Virus record (IMG/VR): IMGVR_UViG_2648501206_000003
Strand: one strand, 5' to 3'
Length of the DNA: 36,546 nt
Source of the DNA: a virus
Taxonomy: Duplodnaviria; Heunggongvirae; Uroviricota; Caudoviricetes
The notes under the pieces are model-generated. The model searched no databases. It saw only the letters and a list, made by a program, of their open reading frames with translations, and was not told where the DNA came from. The first letter of the stretch is position 1. Every line of letters starts with the position of its first letter. Shown here piece by piece: positions 6,744 to 15,746 of this stretch. Both the position numbers and the translations under genes were made by a program.

Positions 6744-7430
6744 ATGACCCCAATAAAAATATTTATGACTATTGCTGATTTCAAACGGCCTAAATTGGAG
6801 CTCCCAAACGGGGCAAACAAACTACTACTGCACTCTTGCTGTGCTCCATGTTCCGGTGAAGTGATGGAGGCGCTTCAGGCCTCGGGAATCGACTACACCA
6901 TCTTTTTCTACAACCCGAACATTCATCCTCAGAAAGAGTATTTAATTCGTAAGGATGAAAATATTCGCTTTGCTGAACAACACGGCGTGCCGTTTATCGA
7001 TGCTGATTACGACACCGACAACTGGTTTGAACGTGCCAAAGGAATGGAATGGGAGCCTGAGAGGGGGATCCGTTGTACCATGTGTTTTGACATGCGTTTT
7101 GAGCGGACAGCGTTGTACGCTGCTGAAAATGGTTTCAGTGTGATCAGCAGTTCACTGGGCATTTCACGCTGGAAAAATATGCAGCAGGTTAACGAGTGTG
7201 GGCGGCGAGCTGTTGCGCATTATCCGGGTATGGTGTACTGGGATTATAACTGGCGCAAGCAGGGCGGCTCGTCCCGTATGATTGAAATCAGCAAGCGCGA
7301 AAAATTCTATCAGCAGGAATATTGTGGCTGTGTGTATTCTCTGCGCGATACCAATCTACACCGCAAATCTCAGGGACGCCCTCTTATCAAAATTGGCCAA
7401 CTCCACTACGGAAAAGAAGAGAAGGAGTGA
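6744..7430 (+). CDS. DUF208 / QueH-like protein (candidate epoxyqueuosine reductase family); cargo gene
   Basis: Track ORF; motifs [11 protein letters not shown] and FFYNPNIHP recalled as signatures of the DUF208/QueH family; further Cys pairs (CTMC, CGC). Start could be 6744 or 6765. Confidence 0.5.
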
Positions 7431-7610: not shown

Positions 7611-7823
7611 ATGAACGGCAAATCTAGGTTAGCCTCTTACGTGCCGAAAGGCAAGGAGAAGCAGGCTATGAAGCAGCAAAAGGCGATGTTAATCGCCCTG
7701 ATCGTCATCTGTTTAACCGTCATTGTGACGGCACTGGTAACGAGGAAAGACCTCTGCGAGGTACGAATCCGAACCGGCCAGACGGAGGTCACTGTCTTCA
7801 CAGCTTACGAACCTGAGGAGTAA
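7611..7823 (+). CDS. mok: Mok (modulator of killing) reading frame, N-terminally extended over hok
   Basis: Track ORF of 70 aa whose last 51 residues are the Hok toxin, as in chromosomal mok/hok loci. Confidence 0.6.
   Translation: MNGKSRLASYVPKGKEKQAMKQQKAMLIALIVICLTVIVTALVTRKDLCEVRIRTGQTEVTVFTAYEPEE
7668..7823 (+). CDS. hok: Hok-family type I toxin (51 aa, HokD/RelF-like)
   Basis: MKQQKAMLIALIVICLTVIVTALVTRKDLCEVRIRTGQTEVTVFTAYEPEE, near-identical to HokD as recalled; AAGGAGAAG upstream of the ATG; stable hairpin GGCGGGGGAGAAATCCCTCGCC downstream (7831..7852). Confidence 0.85.
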   Translation: MKQQKAMLIALIVICLTVIVTALVTRKDLCEVRIRTGQTEVTVFTAYEPEE

Positions 7824-11068: not shown

Positions 11069-11965
11069 ATGCATGCGTTTAATTACTTTTTGGACCATTG
11101 CAACATGAAATCAGATAAGGCAGAAAACTTAGAGAATCCACTCGAACGTAATGATTTTACAATTGATGACTTCCACCATGTTCTTAGGGAGTTTGATAAA
11201 GCTGTTTGTGAAGCCAATGCGGTAAGTCAGGGAGTAGGTGTGCGAATGGCTGAGGCTTATCAAGGTTGGTCAACATATATATTTGCACGAATTTGCATTC
11301 ATGCTTCGATTATGATTTCTAATGTTCCTAAGTCCAGATGGGCTAAGCGAGATTACGATTTCTGGGATTTTGCTTCTATAGCATCTCATGTCAGGGCGAT
11401 CCTTGAAGCTGAACTTCTGTTTATGTATTTGTCTGAAGCACCAGATTCAGAAGAGGCTTGGTCAGCAAAGCTAAATGTTATGCACATGAATGATTGTGTA
11501 AAAAGGATAGAATTATTCACGCAAAGTGATAATACAGAAGCATTAGAGTTTTATAATGAGCAACAGAGTATAATTGCGGAAAGACTCAATAAAAACCCTG
11601 CTTTTTTATCACTTGATAGTGGTACTAGGAAACGTTGCTTGTCAGGCAAGGCTTTAACAATTCCTAATAGAGACGATTTATTGATTAAACTAGGGAAAGA
11701 CCCAAAATCGTTTAAAGTGATGTTTGATTTTCTATCGCATTACACACACATACTCCCTATGTCATATTACAAAATGGAACCGAATGGGAGAGGGACTGGT
11801 TGTTTTAACAAGTTCGATTTTGGATATATAATAATGGGTATGTTGCTATGTACTGAATCTTTGATTAAGTGTACTGAACGGTTGGTGGATATTTTCCCTG
11901 ATGTTAAACGGTTAAGAAAAGGAACTAAATCAAAATTTACATTGGGCCCTAAACCAACAAAATAA
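11069..11965 (+). CDS. Hypothetical protein, 298 aa, A+T-rich cargo gene of unknown function at the Q/lysis junction
   Basis: Track ORF; my manual count of the first 60 nt gives ~35% GC versus ~52% in terL; no recognisable family motif; no obvious SD at either candidate start (11069 or 11105); own terminator-like hairpin downstream. Confidence 0.55.
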   Translation: MHAFNYFLDHCNMKSDKAENLENPLERNDFTIDDFHHVLREFDKAVCEANAVSQGVGVRMAEAYQGWSTYIFARICIHASIMISNVPKSRWAKRDYDFWDFASIASHVRAILEAELLFMYLSEAPDSEEAWSAKLNVMHMNDCVKRIELFTQSDNTEALEFYNEQQSIIAERLNKNPAFLSLDSGTRKRCLSGKALTIPNRDDLLIKLGKDPKSFKVMFDFLSHYTHILPMSYYKMEPNGRGTGCFNKFDFGYIIMGMLLCTESLIKCTERLVDIFPDVKRLRKGTKSKFTLGPKPTK

Positions 11966-12786: not shown

Positions 12787-13400
12787 TGAACCAATCACAA
12801 TTTCAGCAGGCGGCTGGTATCAGCGCCGGGCTTTCTGCGCGCTGGTTTCCGCACATTGATGCGGCATTGAAAGAGTTTGGAATCACAGCAGTTAACGATC
12901 AGGCCATGTTCATTGCACAAGTTGGGCACGAATCGGCCGGTTTTACCTCGCTGGTGGAGAGCTTTAACTATTCGGTAGAGGGGCTGAAGAAAACCTTTGG
13001 TAAACGCCTGACTCCGTATCAGTGTGAAATGTTGGGACGTATCGATGGTAGGCAGATAGCGCACCAGCAGCAAATAGCCAATTTGGTTTACGGTAACCGC
13101 TTGGGGAATAACTGCCAAGGGGATGGCTGGAAATATCGTGGTCGTGGCCTGCTTCAAATCACCGGCCGGGAGAACTACGCCAAATGCGGTACGGCGCTGA
13201 AGCTTGATCTAATCGGTACACCAGAGTTGCTGACGCAGGAGAAGCATGCTGCCCGTTCTGCTGCTTGGTTTTTCACGTTACGTGGTTGTCTCCTTTACTC
13301 GGGAGAGCTGGAGCACGTCACGCAGATTATTAATGGCGGGCAGAACGGCATTAAAGACCGTCGTGAACGTTACGCCAAAGCTAAAGCCGCACTGGTGTGA
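12786..13400 (+). CDS. Endolysin, glycoside hydrolase family 19 (chitinase-like lysozyme)
   Basis: 204 aa; motif FIAQVGHESAGFTSLVESFNYS typical of GH19 phage endolysins. Confidence 0.75.
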   Translation: MNQSQFQQAAGISAGLSARWFPHIDAALKEFGITAVNDQAMFIAQVGHESAGFTSLVESFNYSVEGLKKTFGKRLTPYQCEMLGRIDGRQIAHQQQIANLVYGNRLGNNCQGDGWKYRGRGLLQITGRENYAKCGTALKLDLIGTPELLTQEKHAARSAAWFFTLRGCLLYSGELEHVTQIINGGQNGIKDRRERYAKAKAALV

Positions 13401-13407
13401 GGTCACT

Positions 13408-13677
13408 ATGGGACTTGAAATGATTATTGGCTTAGTTCTTGCTGCACTGGCAGCAATTGCTGGTGCTTTTGGTCTGGGCAAATCACGCGGTACCAGAATC
13501 GCTGAAACAAAAGCAGACCAGCAACGTACGGAAGAACGTGCAGCGGCTATTGAAGCGGTCGCCAAACGCAGGGTAGAGACAATAAAAGGGGCTAGGGATG
13601 TACAGCAGACTGTTAACCATCTTTCTGATGACGATGTTGACCACGAGTTGCGCGAAAGCTATACCCGCAAAGCCTGA
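13408..13677 (+). CDS. Spanin inner-membrane subunit (Rz-like)
   Basis: Internal ATG of track ORF 13246..13677; N-terminal TM (MGLEMIIGLVLAALAAIAGAF) followed by a charged, coiled-coil-like region; directly after the endolysin. Confidence 0.65.
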   Translation: MGLEMIIGLVLAALAAIAGAFGLGKSRGTRIAETKADQQRTEERAAAIEAVAKRRVETIKGARDVQQTVNHLSDDDVDHELRESYTRKA

Positions 13678-13840
13678 AGTAACGGACACGACCTGTGACT
13701 GGGTGAACATCATCTACCTAACAGAGCACGATATTACCGTGCTGGATAAACAGACGAAGCGGGACATATTGGCGCATAACAAATCAGTGCAGGCTAACTG
13801 CAGGAAGAAAGCGGGGCATGAACGCAGAGAACTTAAGTAA
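13598..13840 (+). CDS. Spanin outer-membrane lipoprotein subunit (Rz1-like), starting inside Rz in another frame
   Basis: Lipobox LTTSC near the N-terminus; start embedded in the 3' end of the Rz-like gene. Confidence 0.6.
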   Translation: MYSRLLTIFLMTMLTTSCAKAIPAKPEVTDTTCDWVNIIYLTEHDITVLDKQTKRDILAHNKSVQANCRKKAGHERRELK

Positions 13841-14061
13841 CGCGCATTACATCTATAACGAGATGAAAGAGCTACAGCGACAGAAAGGTATACTAGAAAG
13901 TGGCGCTGGGCTTGGTGTGACAATCCAGTCTGCCTATTAAGATAATGCCTTTATTGAGGCTATACGCCCACATGCAGTTGCTGAACTTGACCGCCACATT
14001 GAGGAAAAGAAATCCGTGCTGGTTAATTTGGGAGATTCCTTTTTTATACGAGCATAATAAA

Positions 14062-14078
14062 GCGGGTTGGAAACCCGC
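14062..14078 (-). terminator. Intrinsic terminator for the minus-strand YfbU-like gene
   Basis: Hairpin GCGGGTT-GGA-AACCCGC located 10 nt past the stop; followed on the minus strand by TTATTAT. Confidence 0.45.
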
Positions 14079-14087
14079 CTAAAGCAC

Positions 14088-14627
14088 TTAGAAACTGCGT
14101 GGAGCTGTGGAAAGAATGGATGCCAGTTCTTCCTTTGATAAATCCCAGCTTCGATTTACAGCGTCAATTTTCTTAAACTCATCAAGCATTGCGTTATAGA
14201 GATGTTCTGTACGTGAATGAGTATTGGCAATGGGCTGTTTCTGTTCGGGGAAGCGATCAATTTTCTGATACGCCTCAATGATACTGAAGTAATCGCATTC
14301 ATTATTACCGTCGAAACCTGGGAGCTGAATTTCCCCATCATGTATTTTTAGATGATGGTCACGGACTAATTCTTTTTGCTCGTCATCACTAAGTTTCCTG
14401 AAAGCATTGGAAAGTCCGCGGTACATATTCAATACAGCAGTAACAAAATCACGATCTTCTTTACTTGGTTCATCAACATCCAAATGTGAATATTCGGCCT
14501 TCATAACCCAATCATTACCAGATGACACAGCATATTTTACAAGCTGTGGATCAATATCAGTTTCGATACCTAGGTGGATGGCAATGTCACATAACAAAAT
14601 GGTATTGATTTTATCCTTAATATCCAT
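14088..14627 (-). CDS. YfbU-family (UPF0304-like) protein, 179 aa; antisense A+T-rich cargo gene between lysis and packaging modules
   Basis: Track ORF on the opposite strand to all flanking phage genes; segments VTAVLNMYRGLSNAFRKL, GFDGNNECDYFSIIEAY and THSRTEHLYNAML parallel E. coli YfbU as recalled; own terminator. Confidence 0.5.
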   Translation of the reverse strand: MDIKDKINTILLCDIAIHLGIETDIDPQLVKYAVSSGNDWVMKAEYSHLDVDEPSKEDRDFVTAVLNMYRGLSNAFRKLSDDEQKELVRDHHLKIHDGEIQLPGFDGNNECDYFSIIEAYQKIDRFPEQKQPIANTHSRTEHLYNAMLDEFKKIDAVNRSWDLSKEELASILSTAPRSF

Positions 14628-14765
14628 GAGTTAACCCTCTGAAGTAAAAAGTAATATCTACACCCGTTAGCTCATGAAGTCTATTGATCTGGCTCATATC
14701 AGCTGCAAATCCATTTCATGGAGATACTCAATGCAGGTCACTTTTGATTTATATAAGGGCGAAAC

Positions 14766-15116
14766 ATGCCAGCACTAATCCCACGCGCCTGCCGTAAACG
14801 TGGATGTGCAGGTACAACCACAGACAGTTCTGGTTACTGCGATAAACATCGTGGCGAAGGATGGGCACAGCATCAACGCGGATTAAGTCGCCACCAGCGT
14901 GGCTATGGCTCGAAATGGGATGCCATACGTGCGCGCATACTGAAGCGTGATAATCATCTGTGTCAGAACTGCCTGCGCAACGGGAGAGCCGTTGAAGCCA
15001 GAACTGTGGACCACATTATTCCGAAAGCTCATGGTGGCACGGATGCAGACAGTAATCTGCAGAGTCTGTGCTGGCCCTGCCATAAAGCAAAAACTGCGCG
15101 CGAACGTATCAACTGA
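14766..15116 (+). CDS. HNH endonuclease (terminase-associated)
   Basis: Cys-rich HNH motif (CQNCLRNGRAVEARTVDHIIPKAHGGTDADSNLQSLCWPCH); immediately upstream of the small terminase, as in HK97-like cos phages. Confidence 0.8.
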   Translation: MPALIPRACRKRGCAGTTTDSSGYCDKHRGEGWAQHQRGLSRHQRGYGSKWDAIRARILKRDNHLCQNCLRNGRAVEARTVDHIIPKAHGGTDADSNLQSLCWPCHKAKTARERIN

Positions 15117-15263
15117 TAACAGTTCCCATCTGCAGGGGAGGGGAGGGTCAAATCTCTGCAGCCCTGGCTGCTCAGTACCGCCGCCTGACCCTTCCTCACA
15201 TCGCCGCAGGTTCGAAAACTTTTTTTGGAAATGTGAACAAACGATTGATAGGTAAGACCGATT

Positions 15264-15746
15264 ATGTCAGGACCTCCGAAAACCCCGCCACGCCTGCATT
15301 TGATACGAGGCAACCCCTCAAAGCGCCCCGTTAAAGACTCAAAAAAAACCGCTAAAAAGGATGAAAAAGGTCTCCCTAAAATTCCGCAGCATTTAGGGGC
15401 ACAGGGGAAGTACTGGTTCAGGCGAATGGCGGAAGAGCTGAATGCGGAAGGGATCATTTCTCAGCTTGATGCGCGTGCACTCGAGTTGCTGGTGGAAGCC
15501 TATACCGAATATCGGCATCACTGCGAAACACTCGATGTTGAGGGGTATACCTACCGCACGGAAACGCAGAGCGGTGATGTACTGATTAAGGCGCACCCCG
15601 CGGCGGCAATGAAAGCGGATGCCTGGAAGCGGATCCGGGCAATGCTTGCAGAGTTTGGTATGTCACCGGCAAGCCGGGCTAAAGTAAATATTGCCGGACC
15701 GGATGATGTTGATCCGCTGGCGGAGCTTTTAAAAGCGAGAGACTGA
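15264..15746 (+). CDS. Terminase small subunit (P27 family)
   Basis: 160 aa; position between HNH and the large terminase; sequence pattern typical of P27-family small subunits. Confidence 0.75.
   Translation: MSGPPKTPPRLHLIRGNPSKRPVKDSKKTAKKDEKGLPKIPQHLGAQGKYWFRRMAEELNAEGIISQLDARALELLVEAYTEYRHHCETLDVEGYTYRTETQSGDVLIKAHPAAAMKADAWKRIRAMLAEFGMSPASRAKVNIAGPDDVDPLAELLKARD

What the first reader, a model, noticed from the sequence alone, without database searches (positions are those of the whole stretch)
14060..14765. Antisense A+T-rich YfbU-like gene between the lysis cassette and the HNH/terminase module
The 179-aa ORF (14088..14627) is the only sizeable gene in the late region on the opposite strand. 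It is A+T-rich, has its own terminator (14062..14078), and diverges from the HNH gene across a 138-bp gap that could hold its promoter. Several segments parallel E. coli YfbU (UPF0304) as I recall it. That family has no well-established function, so a phage-borne copy in a cargo slot is a candidate lysogen-expressed function (defence, exclusion or host modulation).
Basis: partly seen in the sequence, partly recalled or inferred. Interest (0 to 1): 0.65.

Follow-up and report, generated by a model that had tools for sequence, protein, structure and literature searches.

The report
Prophage-borne YfbU-family cargo gene
A small gene sitting backwards between the lysis and DNA-packaging genes of an E. 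coli prophage does encode a distant YfbU-fold protein; it is a conserved, widespread passenger gene whose most likely job, judging from the lactococcal protein Kamadhenu, is to protect the lysogen from other phages, but nobody has tested this.

Summary
ORF 14088..14627 (-) encodes 179 aa. It is the only minus-strand ORF of at least 150 aa in the late region that does not overlap a larger + gene. Its G+C is 38.9% against 51.3% for the window. A hairpin with a U-tract follows it, and it diverges from HNH across 138 bp.

It is under purifying selection and occurs in 225 of 5,426 complete E. coli genomes. In 77 viral contigs its relatives (29-100% identity) lie with terminase on the 5' side and lysis on the 3' side wherever those markers were found, never the reverse. 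The flanking genes are on the opposite strand in 72 of the 77, across at least four terminase types.

In sister prophages the same slot is empty or holds antisense bor/iss. The gene therefore sits in a 1,017-bp moron (13749..14765).

The only tested YfbU-domain protein on a mobile element is Kamadhenu (180 aa, single gene, abortive infection). My best reading is a lysogen-expressed, single-protein defence or exclusion factor (confidence 0.45). It is a new member of a known kind, of moderate interest.

The parts
13749..14765 (.). Moron cassette in the bor/iss slot, between the end of the lysis/spanin genes and the HNH start codon
   Evidence: Similarity to prophages that have a different lysis module begins at window 13749. 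Similarity to empty-slot and iss-slot prophages breaks exactly at the HNH ATG. The slot is empty in phi467, OkiPb01701 and strain 042. It holds antisense bor/iss in vB_EcoS-640R1 and CREC-532.
14088..14627 (-). yfbU-family gene, 179 aa (RefSeq WP_023155123.1, 'YfbU family protein')
14060..14080 (-). Intrinsic-terminator-like hairpin, 8 nt after the stop codon, followed by UUUAUUAU
   Evidence: RNA fold -13.5 kcal/mol, z = -2.3; sequence read directly. It was not reported by the consensus scan.
14628..14765 (-). 138-bp upstream region that travels with the cassette. It holds the RBS AGAGGG (14640-14635) and a weak -10-like TAGATA (14660-14655) and -35-like TAGACT (14683-14678).
   Evidence: Positions. 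The elements are conserved in position in L002 and L024. The region differs entirely from the empty-slot and iss-slot intergenic sequences. Promoter activity is inferred, not shown.
13818..14057 (+). Remnant of a small convergent ORF, with an internal stop and a frameshift here; it is intact at 88 aa in vB_EcoS-689R5
   Evidence: Translation and tblastn. RefSeq marks it as a pseudogene. It was found only in the E. coli-type cassette, so it is not a conserved partner.

Best explanation
The gene is a self-contained moron: its own weak promoter, one ORF and its own terminator. It is inserted antisense at the right end of the late operon of a lambdoid/HK97-like E. coli prophage, in the same slot and orientation as lambda bor/iss.

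It encodes a cytoplasmic, two-domain, all-helical YfbU-fold protein, which probably forms a homo-oligomer as E. coli YfbU does.

My best reading is that it is made in the lysogen and acts alone as a superinfection-defence (abortive-infection type) factor. That would make it the enterobacterial prophage counterpart of the lactococcal YfbU-domain protein Kamadhenu. By that analogy it would sense a replication or recombination function of an incoming phage, or its DNA intermediate; Kamadhenu escapers map to a Sak-like SSAP. It would then stop growth of the infected cell. Antisense late transcription through the gene would help silence it when the resident prophage itself goes lytic.

Shown here: family and fold membership, purifying selection, cassette structure, conserved position and orientation, and presence/absence polymorphism. 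Inferred: expression in the lysogen, the defence phenotype, the trigger, oligomerisation, and silencing by late transcription.
For: (1) It is a YfbU family and fold member.

(2) The only functionally tested mobile-element YfbU-domain protein, Kamadhenu, is 180 aa and works as a single gene. It gives more than 4-log protection with an Abi-like lysis profile, and its escapers carry a G22 change in a Sak-like SSAP (PMC11381338; PMC12184496). The window protein is 179 aa and has no conserved partner gene.

(3) It is accessory, not part of the lytic programme. 225 of 5,426 E. coli genomes carry it, against 931 genomes that carry at least 80% of the same HNH-TerS module. The slot is otherwise empty or holds bor/iss.

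(4) Position and orientation are strongly conserved. In 77 IMG/VR loci with 29-100% identity, terminase/HNH markers were found on its 5' side in 60 loci and lysis markers on its 3' side in 55, with none reversed. In 72 of 77 loci at least 80% of the large flanking ORFs are on the opposite strand. The same holds in 7 of 7 contexts from Superficieibacter, Enterobacter, Providencia and others, next to at least four terminase types.

(5) It is real and under selection: pN 0.27-0.33 with pS saturated, dN/dS 0.08-0.16, and a uniform length of 177-180 aa for most members, the longer calls being N-terminal extensions.

(6) Close and distant relatives also sit on conjugative plasmids, next to a RES-Xre toxin-antitoxin pair in Kosakonia and between two IS1216 copies in Enterococcus. 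The benefit therefore does not depend on a phage life cycle.

(7) In some loci the same slot also carries defence-type genes beside it. One is a TIR protein matching PADLOC candidate PDC-S66 at E = 1e-113, on the same strand. Another is a PD-T4-6-like Ser/Thr kinase with a PP2C phosphatase.
Against: There is no hit to any PADLOC-DB 2.0.0 model, although that database predates Kamadhenu.

I could not obtain the Kamadhenu sequence. The link is therefore only shared Pfam family, fold, size and single-gene organisation. The E. faecium plasmid YfbU, the Lactobacillales relative I could examine, is only 24% identical to the window protein and is closer to canonical YfbU.

Kamadhenu's own mechanism is unknown.

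The family also contains a core-genome protein, E. coli YfbU. That protein has been linked to death after DNA damage, to ribosome/YeeX interactions and to high-order assemblies, none of which is a defence function as such.

The slot's other known cargo, bor/iss, is a serum-resistance lipoprotein, not a defence gene.

The promoter is weak and unverified, and an A+T-rich gene may be silenced by H-NS.

Only two loci of the roughly 40 diverse ones sampled, plus a third with a type II restriction-enzyme-like neighbour, have recognisable defence genes next to it.
Confidence: 0.45

Rival explanations
1. Lysogenic-conversion gene that changes host physiology rather than blocking phages. A divergent YfbU paralogue would modulate whatever the chromosomal YfbU does: stress- or DNA-damage-induced death, or a ribosome-associated function. 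That could, for example, tune survival of the lysogen or the threshold for prophage induction. It would be comparable in logic to bor/iss, which occupy the same slot.
For: The slot is shared with bor/iss. E. coli yfbU deletion mutants survive DNA damage like mazEF mutants, so it was called a 'death gene' (PMC2646832). Canonical YfbU is reported with ribosomal subunits and YeeX and in high-order assemblies (PMC3210124). About 14% of the best family representatives (21 of 150) carry an N-terminal ribbon-helix-helix DNA-binding domain, so the YfbU domain can serve as the sensor or oligomerisation module of a regulator.
Against: At 15% identity to host YfbU, with different conserved motifs (LLCDI, GFDGNNE and N-T/S-H against LILSNQY, GFDAATE and NAQ), direct mimicry or subunit mixing is doubtful. 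The clade is tied to prophages and plasmids across many genera whatever the host background. The only direct phenotype for a mobile YfbU-domain protein is antiphage.
Confidence: 0.25
2. A phage-benefit function used during the phage's own infection or induction: a counter-defence protein, a host-takeover factor, or a helper acting near cos/terminase. This would explain why the gene always sits next to the packaging genes.
For: The gene is always adjacent to the small terminase/HNH side, across several terminase types. In HK97-like phages this region borders cos (established knowledge of HK97 gp74 HNH and terminase, not tested here).
Against: The gene is antisense to the late operon, with its own terminator, in 72 of 77 loci. 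It is absent from most prophages that share the same HNH-TerS-TerL genes, including inducible phages such as phi467. Relatives occur on plasmids that have no packaging genes. The junction between lysis and terminase genes is a classic place where insertions are tolerated, so position alone does not imply a packaging role.
Confidence: 0.12
3. Decaying or silent hitch-hiker DNA with no current function.
For: It is A+T-rich, looks foreign, has a weak promoter, and its neighbouring small ORF is already a pseudogene here.
Against: dN/dS is 0.08-0.16 with saturated synonymous sites. The frame is intact, at 177-180 aa in most members across at least 40 sequence clusters, and 9 residues are invariant. 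It is 95-100% conserved in 225 E. coli genomes.
Confidence: 0.03

Closest known systems
Kamadhenu (Lactococcus plasmid pUCCL624_130; Grafakou et al. 2024, PMC11381338; escape mutants in PMC12184496)
   Different: The host phylum differs (Bacillota plasmid against enterobacterial prophage). The antiphage phenotype and SSAP-linked escape are shown only for Kamadhenu. The window gene has a fixed antisense position in a phage late region.
E. coli / Salmonella YfbU (UPF0304; PDB 1WPB, 4LR3)
   Same: The same two-domain helical fold. The C-terminal domain aligns by profile (residues 54-173, E = 3.4e-9). Shared GFD..E and Y..ML motifs.
   Different: 15% identity, not significant pairwise. It fails the NCBIfam equivalog cutoff (35 against 90 bits). 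The N-terminal domain is not alignable by sequence. The clade-specific motifs LLCDI, W40 and N-T-H137 are absent from canonical YfbU. The window gene is mobile, accessory and A+T-rich, whereas canonical yfbU is a chromosomal gene that I take to be near-universal in E. coli (background knowledge; its distribution was not measured here).
Lambda bor / ColV-type iss morons
   Same: The same slot (after the spanin genes, before cos/terminase), the same antisense orientation, the same presence/absence behaviour among closely related prophages, and the same size class of cassette.
   Different: Bor/Iss are outer-membrane lipoproteins that confer serum resistance. The window protein is a cytoplasmic helical protein unrelated to them in sequence.
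BstA and other prophage-encoded single-protein abortive-infection factors
   Same: The proposed logic: one prophage-encoded protein, expressed in the lysogen, that senses replication of an incoming phage and aborts the infection.
   Different: No sequence or fold relationship. BstA has a known self-immunity element (aba). No such element was looked for or found here.

Membership tests
Pfam PF03887 (YfbU domain) | Score at or above the curated gathering threshold (25 bits) | tested here: met
   46.7 bits, E = 4.7e-12, residues 47-172. All 34 subfamily members match.
YfbU fold (PDB 1WPB/4LR3) | Two-domain helical architecture that superposes on the solved structure | tested here: met
Orthologue of E. 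coli YfbU (NCBIfam NF003936 equivalog) | Score at or above the equivalog cutoff (90 bits), with direct sequence similarity | tested here: not met
   35.3 bits. phmmer against PDB does not find 1WPB. BLASTP gives 15% identity, E = 8.
YfbU homo-oligomer | Forms a large homomeric assembly, as in the crystal structures (16 chains per entry) | not testable with these tools
   Only single-chain prediction is available.
Kamadhenu antiphage system | Single gene of about 180 aa made up of a YfbU domain, with no partner gene | tested here: met
   179 aa. The only adjacent small ORF is a pseudogene here and is absent from other contexts. Neighbours vary in 77 loci.
Kamadhenu antiphage system | Sequence relatedness to pUCCL624_130 closer than to canonical YfbU | not testable with these tools
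   The sequence (BioProject PRJNA1086404) was not found in the plasmid, protein or genome collections searched, and no supplement is held.
Kamadhenu antiphage system | Protection after DNA injection, with an abortive-infection lysis profile and escape through SSAP mutation | not testable with these tools
   Needs phage challenge.
Known defence systems (PADLOC-DB 2.0.0) | Match to a curated defence-protein model | tested here: not met
   0 families at E up to 1. The database dates from 2023, before Kamadhenu.
Phage moron (independent cargo transcription unit) | Present or absent between otherwise collinear phage genes, with a deviating base composition | tested here: met
   The slot is empty, holds bor/iss, or holds yfbU next to the same HNH-TerS genes. 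G+C is 0.389 against 0.513.
Phage moron (independent cargo transcription unit) | Own terminator | tested here: met
   A 9-bp G+C-rich hairpin plus a U-tract, 8 nt after the stop codon. Function is not shown.
Phage moron (independent cargo transcription unit) | Own promoter, active in the lysogen | tested here: inconclusive
   The strict consensus scan finds none on the minus strand. A weak -35/-10 pair is conserved in position in three diverged loci. No expression data are available.

The most novel reading that the evidence does not exclude
The 'LLCDI / GFDGNNE / N-S/T-H' clade of YfbU proteins is a large, unrecognised family of single-protein immunity factors. In enterobacterial lambdoid prophages it always rides, antisense, in the bor slot, and it is present in about 4% of complete E. 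coli genomes. These proteins would sense recombination or replication proteins of superinfecting phages and abort the infection. The chromosomal 'death gene' yfbU and the RHH-YfbU fusions would then be domesticated or self-regulated versions of the same sensor module.
Probability: 0.3. Interest if true: 0.6.

Novelty: new member of a known kind. Interest (0 to 1): 0.4.

Why it matters
If the defence reading is right, roughly one complete E. coli genome in 24, and many Enterobacter, Providencia, Kosakonia and other prophages, carry an unannotated single-gene immunity factor that current defence finders (PADLOC 2.0.0) miss. That bears on phage-therapy host-range prediction and on competition between prophages.

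It would also give the poorly understood YfbU fold a tractable E. coli model with a clear genetic read-out (escape mutants). That in turn would help explain the old 'death gene' phenotype of chromosomal yfbU.

Whatever the function, the strict conservation of slot and antisense orientation across relatives down to about 30% identity and several packaging types is a clean example of position-specific moron inheritance.

Tried and rejected

(2) A two-gene system with the convergent small ORF at 13818-14057. It is a pseudogene here, is intact only in the E. coli-type cassette, and is absent elsewhere. Rejected.

(3) Retrieving the Kamadhenu sequence. I tried tblastn of the window protein and of an E. 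faecium plasmid YfbU against PLSDB, a protein-database search, cluster look-ups, a GTDB genome scan and the paper's supplements. None gave a Lactococcus protein.

(4) Known RNA families and repeats in 13000-15500. There were no Rfam matches at E up to 0.1 and only short chance repeats.

(5) A LexA box in the upstream region. Reading the sequence shows only CTG-N8-CAG, which has the wrong spacing. Rejected.

(6) PADLOC hits in eight other accessory ORFs of the window: none.

(7) BFVD fold search. Only one viral protein had a comparable fold (TM about 0.6, E = 2.4e-3), so it added little.

(8) Literature search for tests of this E. coli gene, by accession, 'YfbU family protein' and PHROG id. Only canonical yfbU appears.

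Full report
OBSERVATION. The ORF is at 14088..14627 on the minus strand and encodes 179 aa from an ATG. An AGAGGG ribosome-binding site ends 7 nt upstream of the start. All other minus-strand ORFs of at least 150 aa between 10000 and the window end overlap larger + strand genes. In a RefSeq chromosome that is 100% identical over 13400-15300 (NZ_CP098178), every annotated gene from cro to lom is on the + strand except this one. The ORF has 38.9% G+C (GC3 33.9%). The window has 51.3%, and the neighbouring endolysin, HNH, TerS and TerL genes have 51-54%.

On the minus strand a hairpin at 14060-14080 starts eight nucleotides after the stop codon. Its core arms are at 14062-14068 and 14072-14078, it folds at -13.5 kcal/mol (z = -2.3), and UUUAUUAU follows it. 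The consensus scan did not list it, nor any minus-strand promoter. The gap to the HNH start is 138 bp. Only the promoter remains a supposition.

WHERE THE WINDOW COMES FROM. The window is a lambdoid, Rac/HK97-like E. coli prophage integrated next to potC. Its order is int, xis, exonuclease, kil, cI/cro, replication genes, Q, holins, GH19 endolysin, spanins, [this gene], HNH, P27-family TerS, TerL, portal, HK97-type head genes, tail genes, J, lom. RefSeq/PGAP already names the product 'YfbU family protein' (WP_023155123.1). The family label is therefore not new.

WHAT THE PROTEIN IS. Pfam YfbU (PF03887) matches at 46.7 bits against a cutoff of 25, over residues 47-172. PHROG 6084 (function unknown) matches end to end at E = 1e-82. 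The NCBIfam equivalog for E. coli YfbU scores 35 bits against a cutoff of 90. A single-sequence search of PDB does not find YfbU. BLASTP against E. coli YfbU gives 15% identity at E = 8.

Intermediate sequences link the two. They come from Yersinia phage vB_YenM_324, a Raoultella plasmid, a Vibrio chromosome and another prophage. They are about 31% identical to the window protein (E = 1e-17 to 1e-20) and 25-27% identical to E. coli YfbU (E = 1e-8 to 1e-11). The protein is thus a true but very divergent member of the family, a paralogue and not an orthologue.

The subfamily has invariant C13, A33, W40, G104-F105-D106, E110, H137 and Y144. Its motifs are LLCDI, GFDGNNE and N-T-H. The corresponding stretches in canonical YfbU read LILSNQY, GFDAATE and NAQ. 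An exhaustive profile search finds 2,088 representatives (50%-identity clusters) at E up to 1e-3 and 835 at E up to 1e-10, most matched over their full length.

IS IT A LIVE GENE? Against seven homologues that are 49-61% identical at the protein level, non-synonymous differences per site are 0.27-0.33. Synonymous sites are saturated (pS 0.72-0.82). Against a 99%-identical copy, dN/dS is 0.08; where dS can be computed, dN/dS is 0.12-0.16. Most family members are 177-180 aa; the few longer calls (189-211 aa) are N-terminal extensions that are probably mis-called starts. The gene is under purifying selection. It stays A+T-rich (28-43% G+C) in every host examined.

THE SLOT. The gene alone is found at 95-100% nucleotide identity in 225 of 5,426 complete E. 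coli genomes, always on the chromosome. The adjacent HNH-TerS module is found at at least 80% coverage in 931 genomes.

I sampled prophages that share HNH-TerS. The space between the last lysis gene and HNH is 42 bp and empty in Stx phage phi467, strain OkiPb01701 and strain 042. It holds antisense bor/iss in vB_EcoS-640R1 and CREC-532. It holds small + strand ORFs in strain E30. It holds the yfbU-like gene plus a small convergent ORF in vB_EcoS-689R5, MSB1_4E and strain 492.

Pairwise alignment shows that homology breaks exactly at the HNH start codon on one side and near the end of the spanin genes on the other. In the window the left break is at 13749. The unit is therefore a 1,017-bp cassette at 13749-14765, and it carries its own 138-bp upstream region. 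The small + ORF inside it (13818-14057) is a pseudogene here and does not occur with more distant homologues. The yfbU-like gene therefore stands alone.

CONSERVED POSITION AND ORIENTATION. Contexts of seven subfamily members, from Superficieibacter, Enterobacter hormaechei, E. cloacae, Providencia rettgeri and metagenomes, all place the gene between lysis and small-terminase genes on the opposite strand.

A scan of IMG/VR gave 178 relatives, of which 77 distinct loci were kept. Lysis markers lay on its 3' side in 55 loci. No locus had the reverse order. In 72 of 77 loci at least 80% of the large flanking ORF sequence lies on the opposite strand. This held for 25 of the 26 loci that are only 29-39% identical to the window protein.

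The packaging modules beside it are of at least four kinds: P27/Terminase_4 with HNH, DUF1441 or Nu1 with GpA, Terminase_2/Terminase_6, and Terminase_3. Caveat: the 35 loci with at least 90% identity are largely one E. coli prophage lineage and are not independent. Marker detection was also limited by my reference set. One 32%-identical homologue sits in the other classic moron slot, just upstream of the holin. More distant members sit on chromosomes or conjugative plasmids. In Enterococcus a YfbU-family gene is bracketed by two IS1216 copies on many plasmids.

Chromosomal E. coli yfbU was reported as a 'death gene' required for killing after DNA damage (PMC2646832). Its product was reported with ribosomal subunits and YeeX and in high-order assemblies (PMC3210124).

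The following facts favour a lysogen-expressed defence or exclusion factor acting on its own:
- The gene is accessory and polymorphic.
- It is antisense to the late operon and has its own terminator.
- It lies in the slot that lambda uses for the lysogen-expressed bor gene. That bor is expressed in lysogens is established knowledge, not tested here.
- It is also carried on plasmids.
- It sometimes has defence-type neighbours in the same slot: a TIR protein matching PADLOC PDC-S66 at E = 1e-113 on the same strand in L064, and a PD-T4-6-like kinase with a PP2C phosphatase in L002/L067.

I put this at 0.45. Expression, phenotype and trigger are inferred and not shown. Late transcription reading antisense through the gene could switch it off when the resident phage is induced; this too is inference.

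RIVALS. A host-physiology conversion function, such as modulating stress death or prophage induction, is the main alternative (0.25). It fits the bor/iss company and the phenotypes of canonical YfbU. It also fits a side observation. 21 of the 150 best family representatives carry an N-terminal extension of about 52 aa. Its profile matches the ribbon-helix-helix DNA-binding domain of NikR (E = 4.8e-4), and five of the 21 hit Pfam RHH_1 individually. The YfbU module can therefore act as the sensing or oligomerising part of a regulator.

A role in the phage's own lytic cycle or in counter-defence (0.12) is disfavoured by orientation, dispensability and plasmid-borne relatives. A dead gene (0.03) is contradicted by the selection analysis.

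COMPARISON AND NOVELTY. Membership of Pfam YfbU and of the YfbU fold was tested and met. Orthology with E. coli YfbU was tested and not met. For Kamadhenu, the architectural criteria are met: one gene, about 180 aa, YfbU domain, on a mobile element. Direct sequence relatedness and phenotype could not be tested, because I could not retrieve the Kamadhenu sequence. PADLOC 2.0.0 has no model that matches.

The gene is already annotated as a YfbU family protein, and a YfbU-domain defence protein is already known. I therefore rate this a new member of a known kind.

What is new here is descriptive. There is a large prophage-associated clade with its own motifs. It keeps a strictly conserved antisense position in the bor/iss slot across several packaging types. 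About 4% of complete E. coli genomes carry it. Interest is moderate (0.4). It is a well-founded, easily testable defence candidate, not a surprise.

Noticed in passing
window 11069-11965 (+): A second A+T-rich cargo gene (36.7% G+C, GC3 31%). It encodes a 298-aa DUF5677 protein and sits between antiterminator Q and the holins, the slot that holds stx in Shiga-toxin phages. It has no PADLOC match.
   Followed up: partly
window 13818-14057 (+); intact copy at L013:3570-3836: A small ORF convergent with the yfbU-like gene is disrupted here by an internal stop and a frameshift, but is intact (88 aa) in phage vB_EcoS-689R5. In the intact version its last codons run through the terminator hairpin. 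It is found only in the E. coli-type cassette.
   Followed up: yes
proteins P0101, P0104, P0128, P0132, P0137, P0217 and others (alignments A2, A3): About 14% of the best YfbU-family representatives are fusions with an N-terminal ribbon-helix-helix DNA-binding domain. The consensus is ERFELRLD...L..D.WR....PSRAEA.RRL.E.GL, and its profile matches the NikR RHH domain at E = 4.8e-4. I found no mention of this architecture in the papers I read.
   Followed up: partly
L064:578-1456 (+), about 500 bp upstream of the yfbU-like gene at 1967-2503: A 292-aa TIR-domain protein lies on the same strand as the yfbU-like gene, in the same lysis-terminase slot. It matches PADLOC candidate system PDC-S66 over its full length (E = 1e-113) and is ThsB-like.
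   Followed up: partly
L002:8990-10488 and L067:6990-8488: A Ser/Thr kinase (PD-T4-6-like, E = 4e-30) and a PP2C phosphatase pair lie directly next to the yfbU-like gene in a Superficieibacter-type prophage. A HicAB pair lies just upstream of the lysis genes.
   Followed up: partly
L105:2244-4142 (-): A phage portal protein (Phage_portal_3) carries a C-terminal Acb1 anti-CBASS phosphodiesterase domain (E = 2e-34). This looks like a structural protein fused to a counter-defence enzyme.
   Followed up: no
L107:3981-6403 and L109:3982-6405: In E. coli OkiPb01701 and strain 042 the large terminase gene is cut off at the same point (about 1,029 bp in). A tyrosine recombinase and two HTH regulators follow, as if another element had inserted into terL.
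   Followed up: no
L011:4735-7382: The YfbU-family gene on Enterococcus faecium plasmids is bracketed by two IS1216 copies, a composite-transposon-like arrangement. It is 100% conserved on well over a hundred plasmids.
   Followed up: no
window 6744-7430 (+) and about 7668-7823 (+): The early region of the prophage carries a QueH-like epoxyqueuosine reductase gene and a hokD toxin gene, going by the annotation of the identical RefSeq prophage. These window coordinates were converted from that RefSeq record, and one such converted coordinate elsewhere in the early region turned out to be wrong. The QueH-like ORF has no PADLOC match.
   Followed up: no
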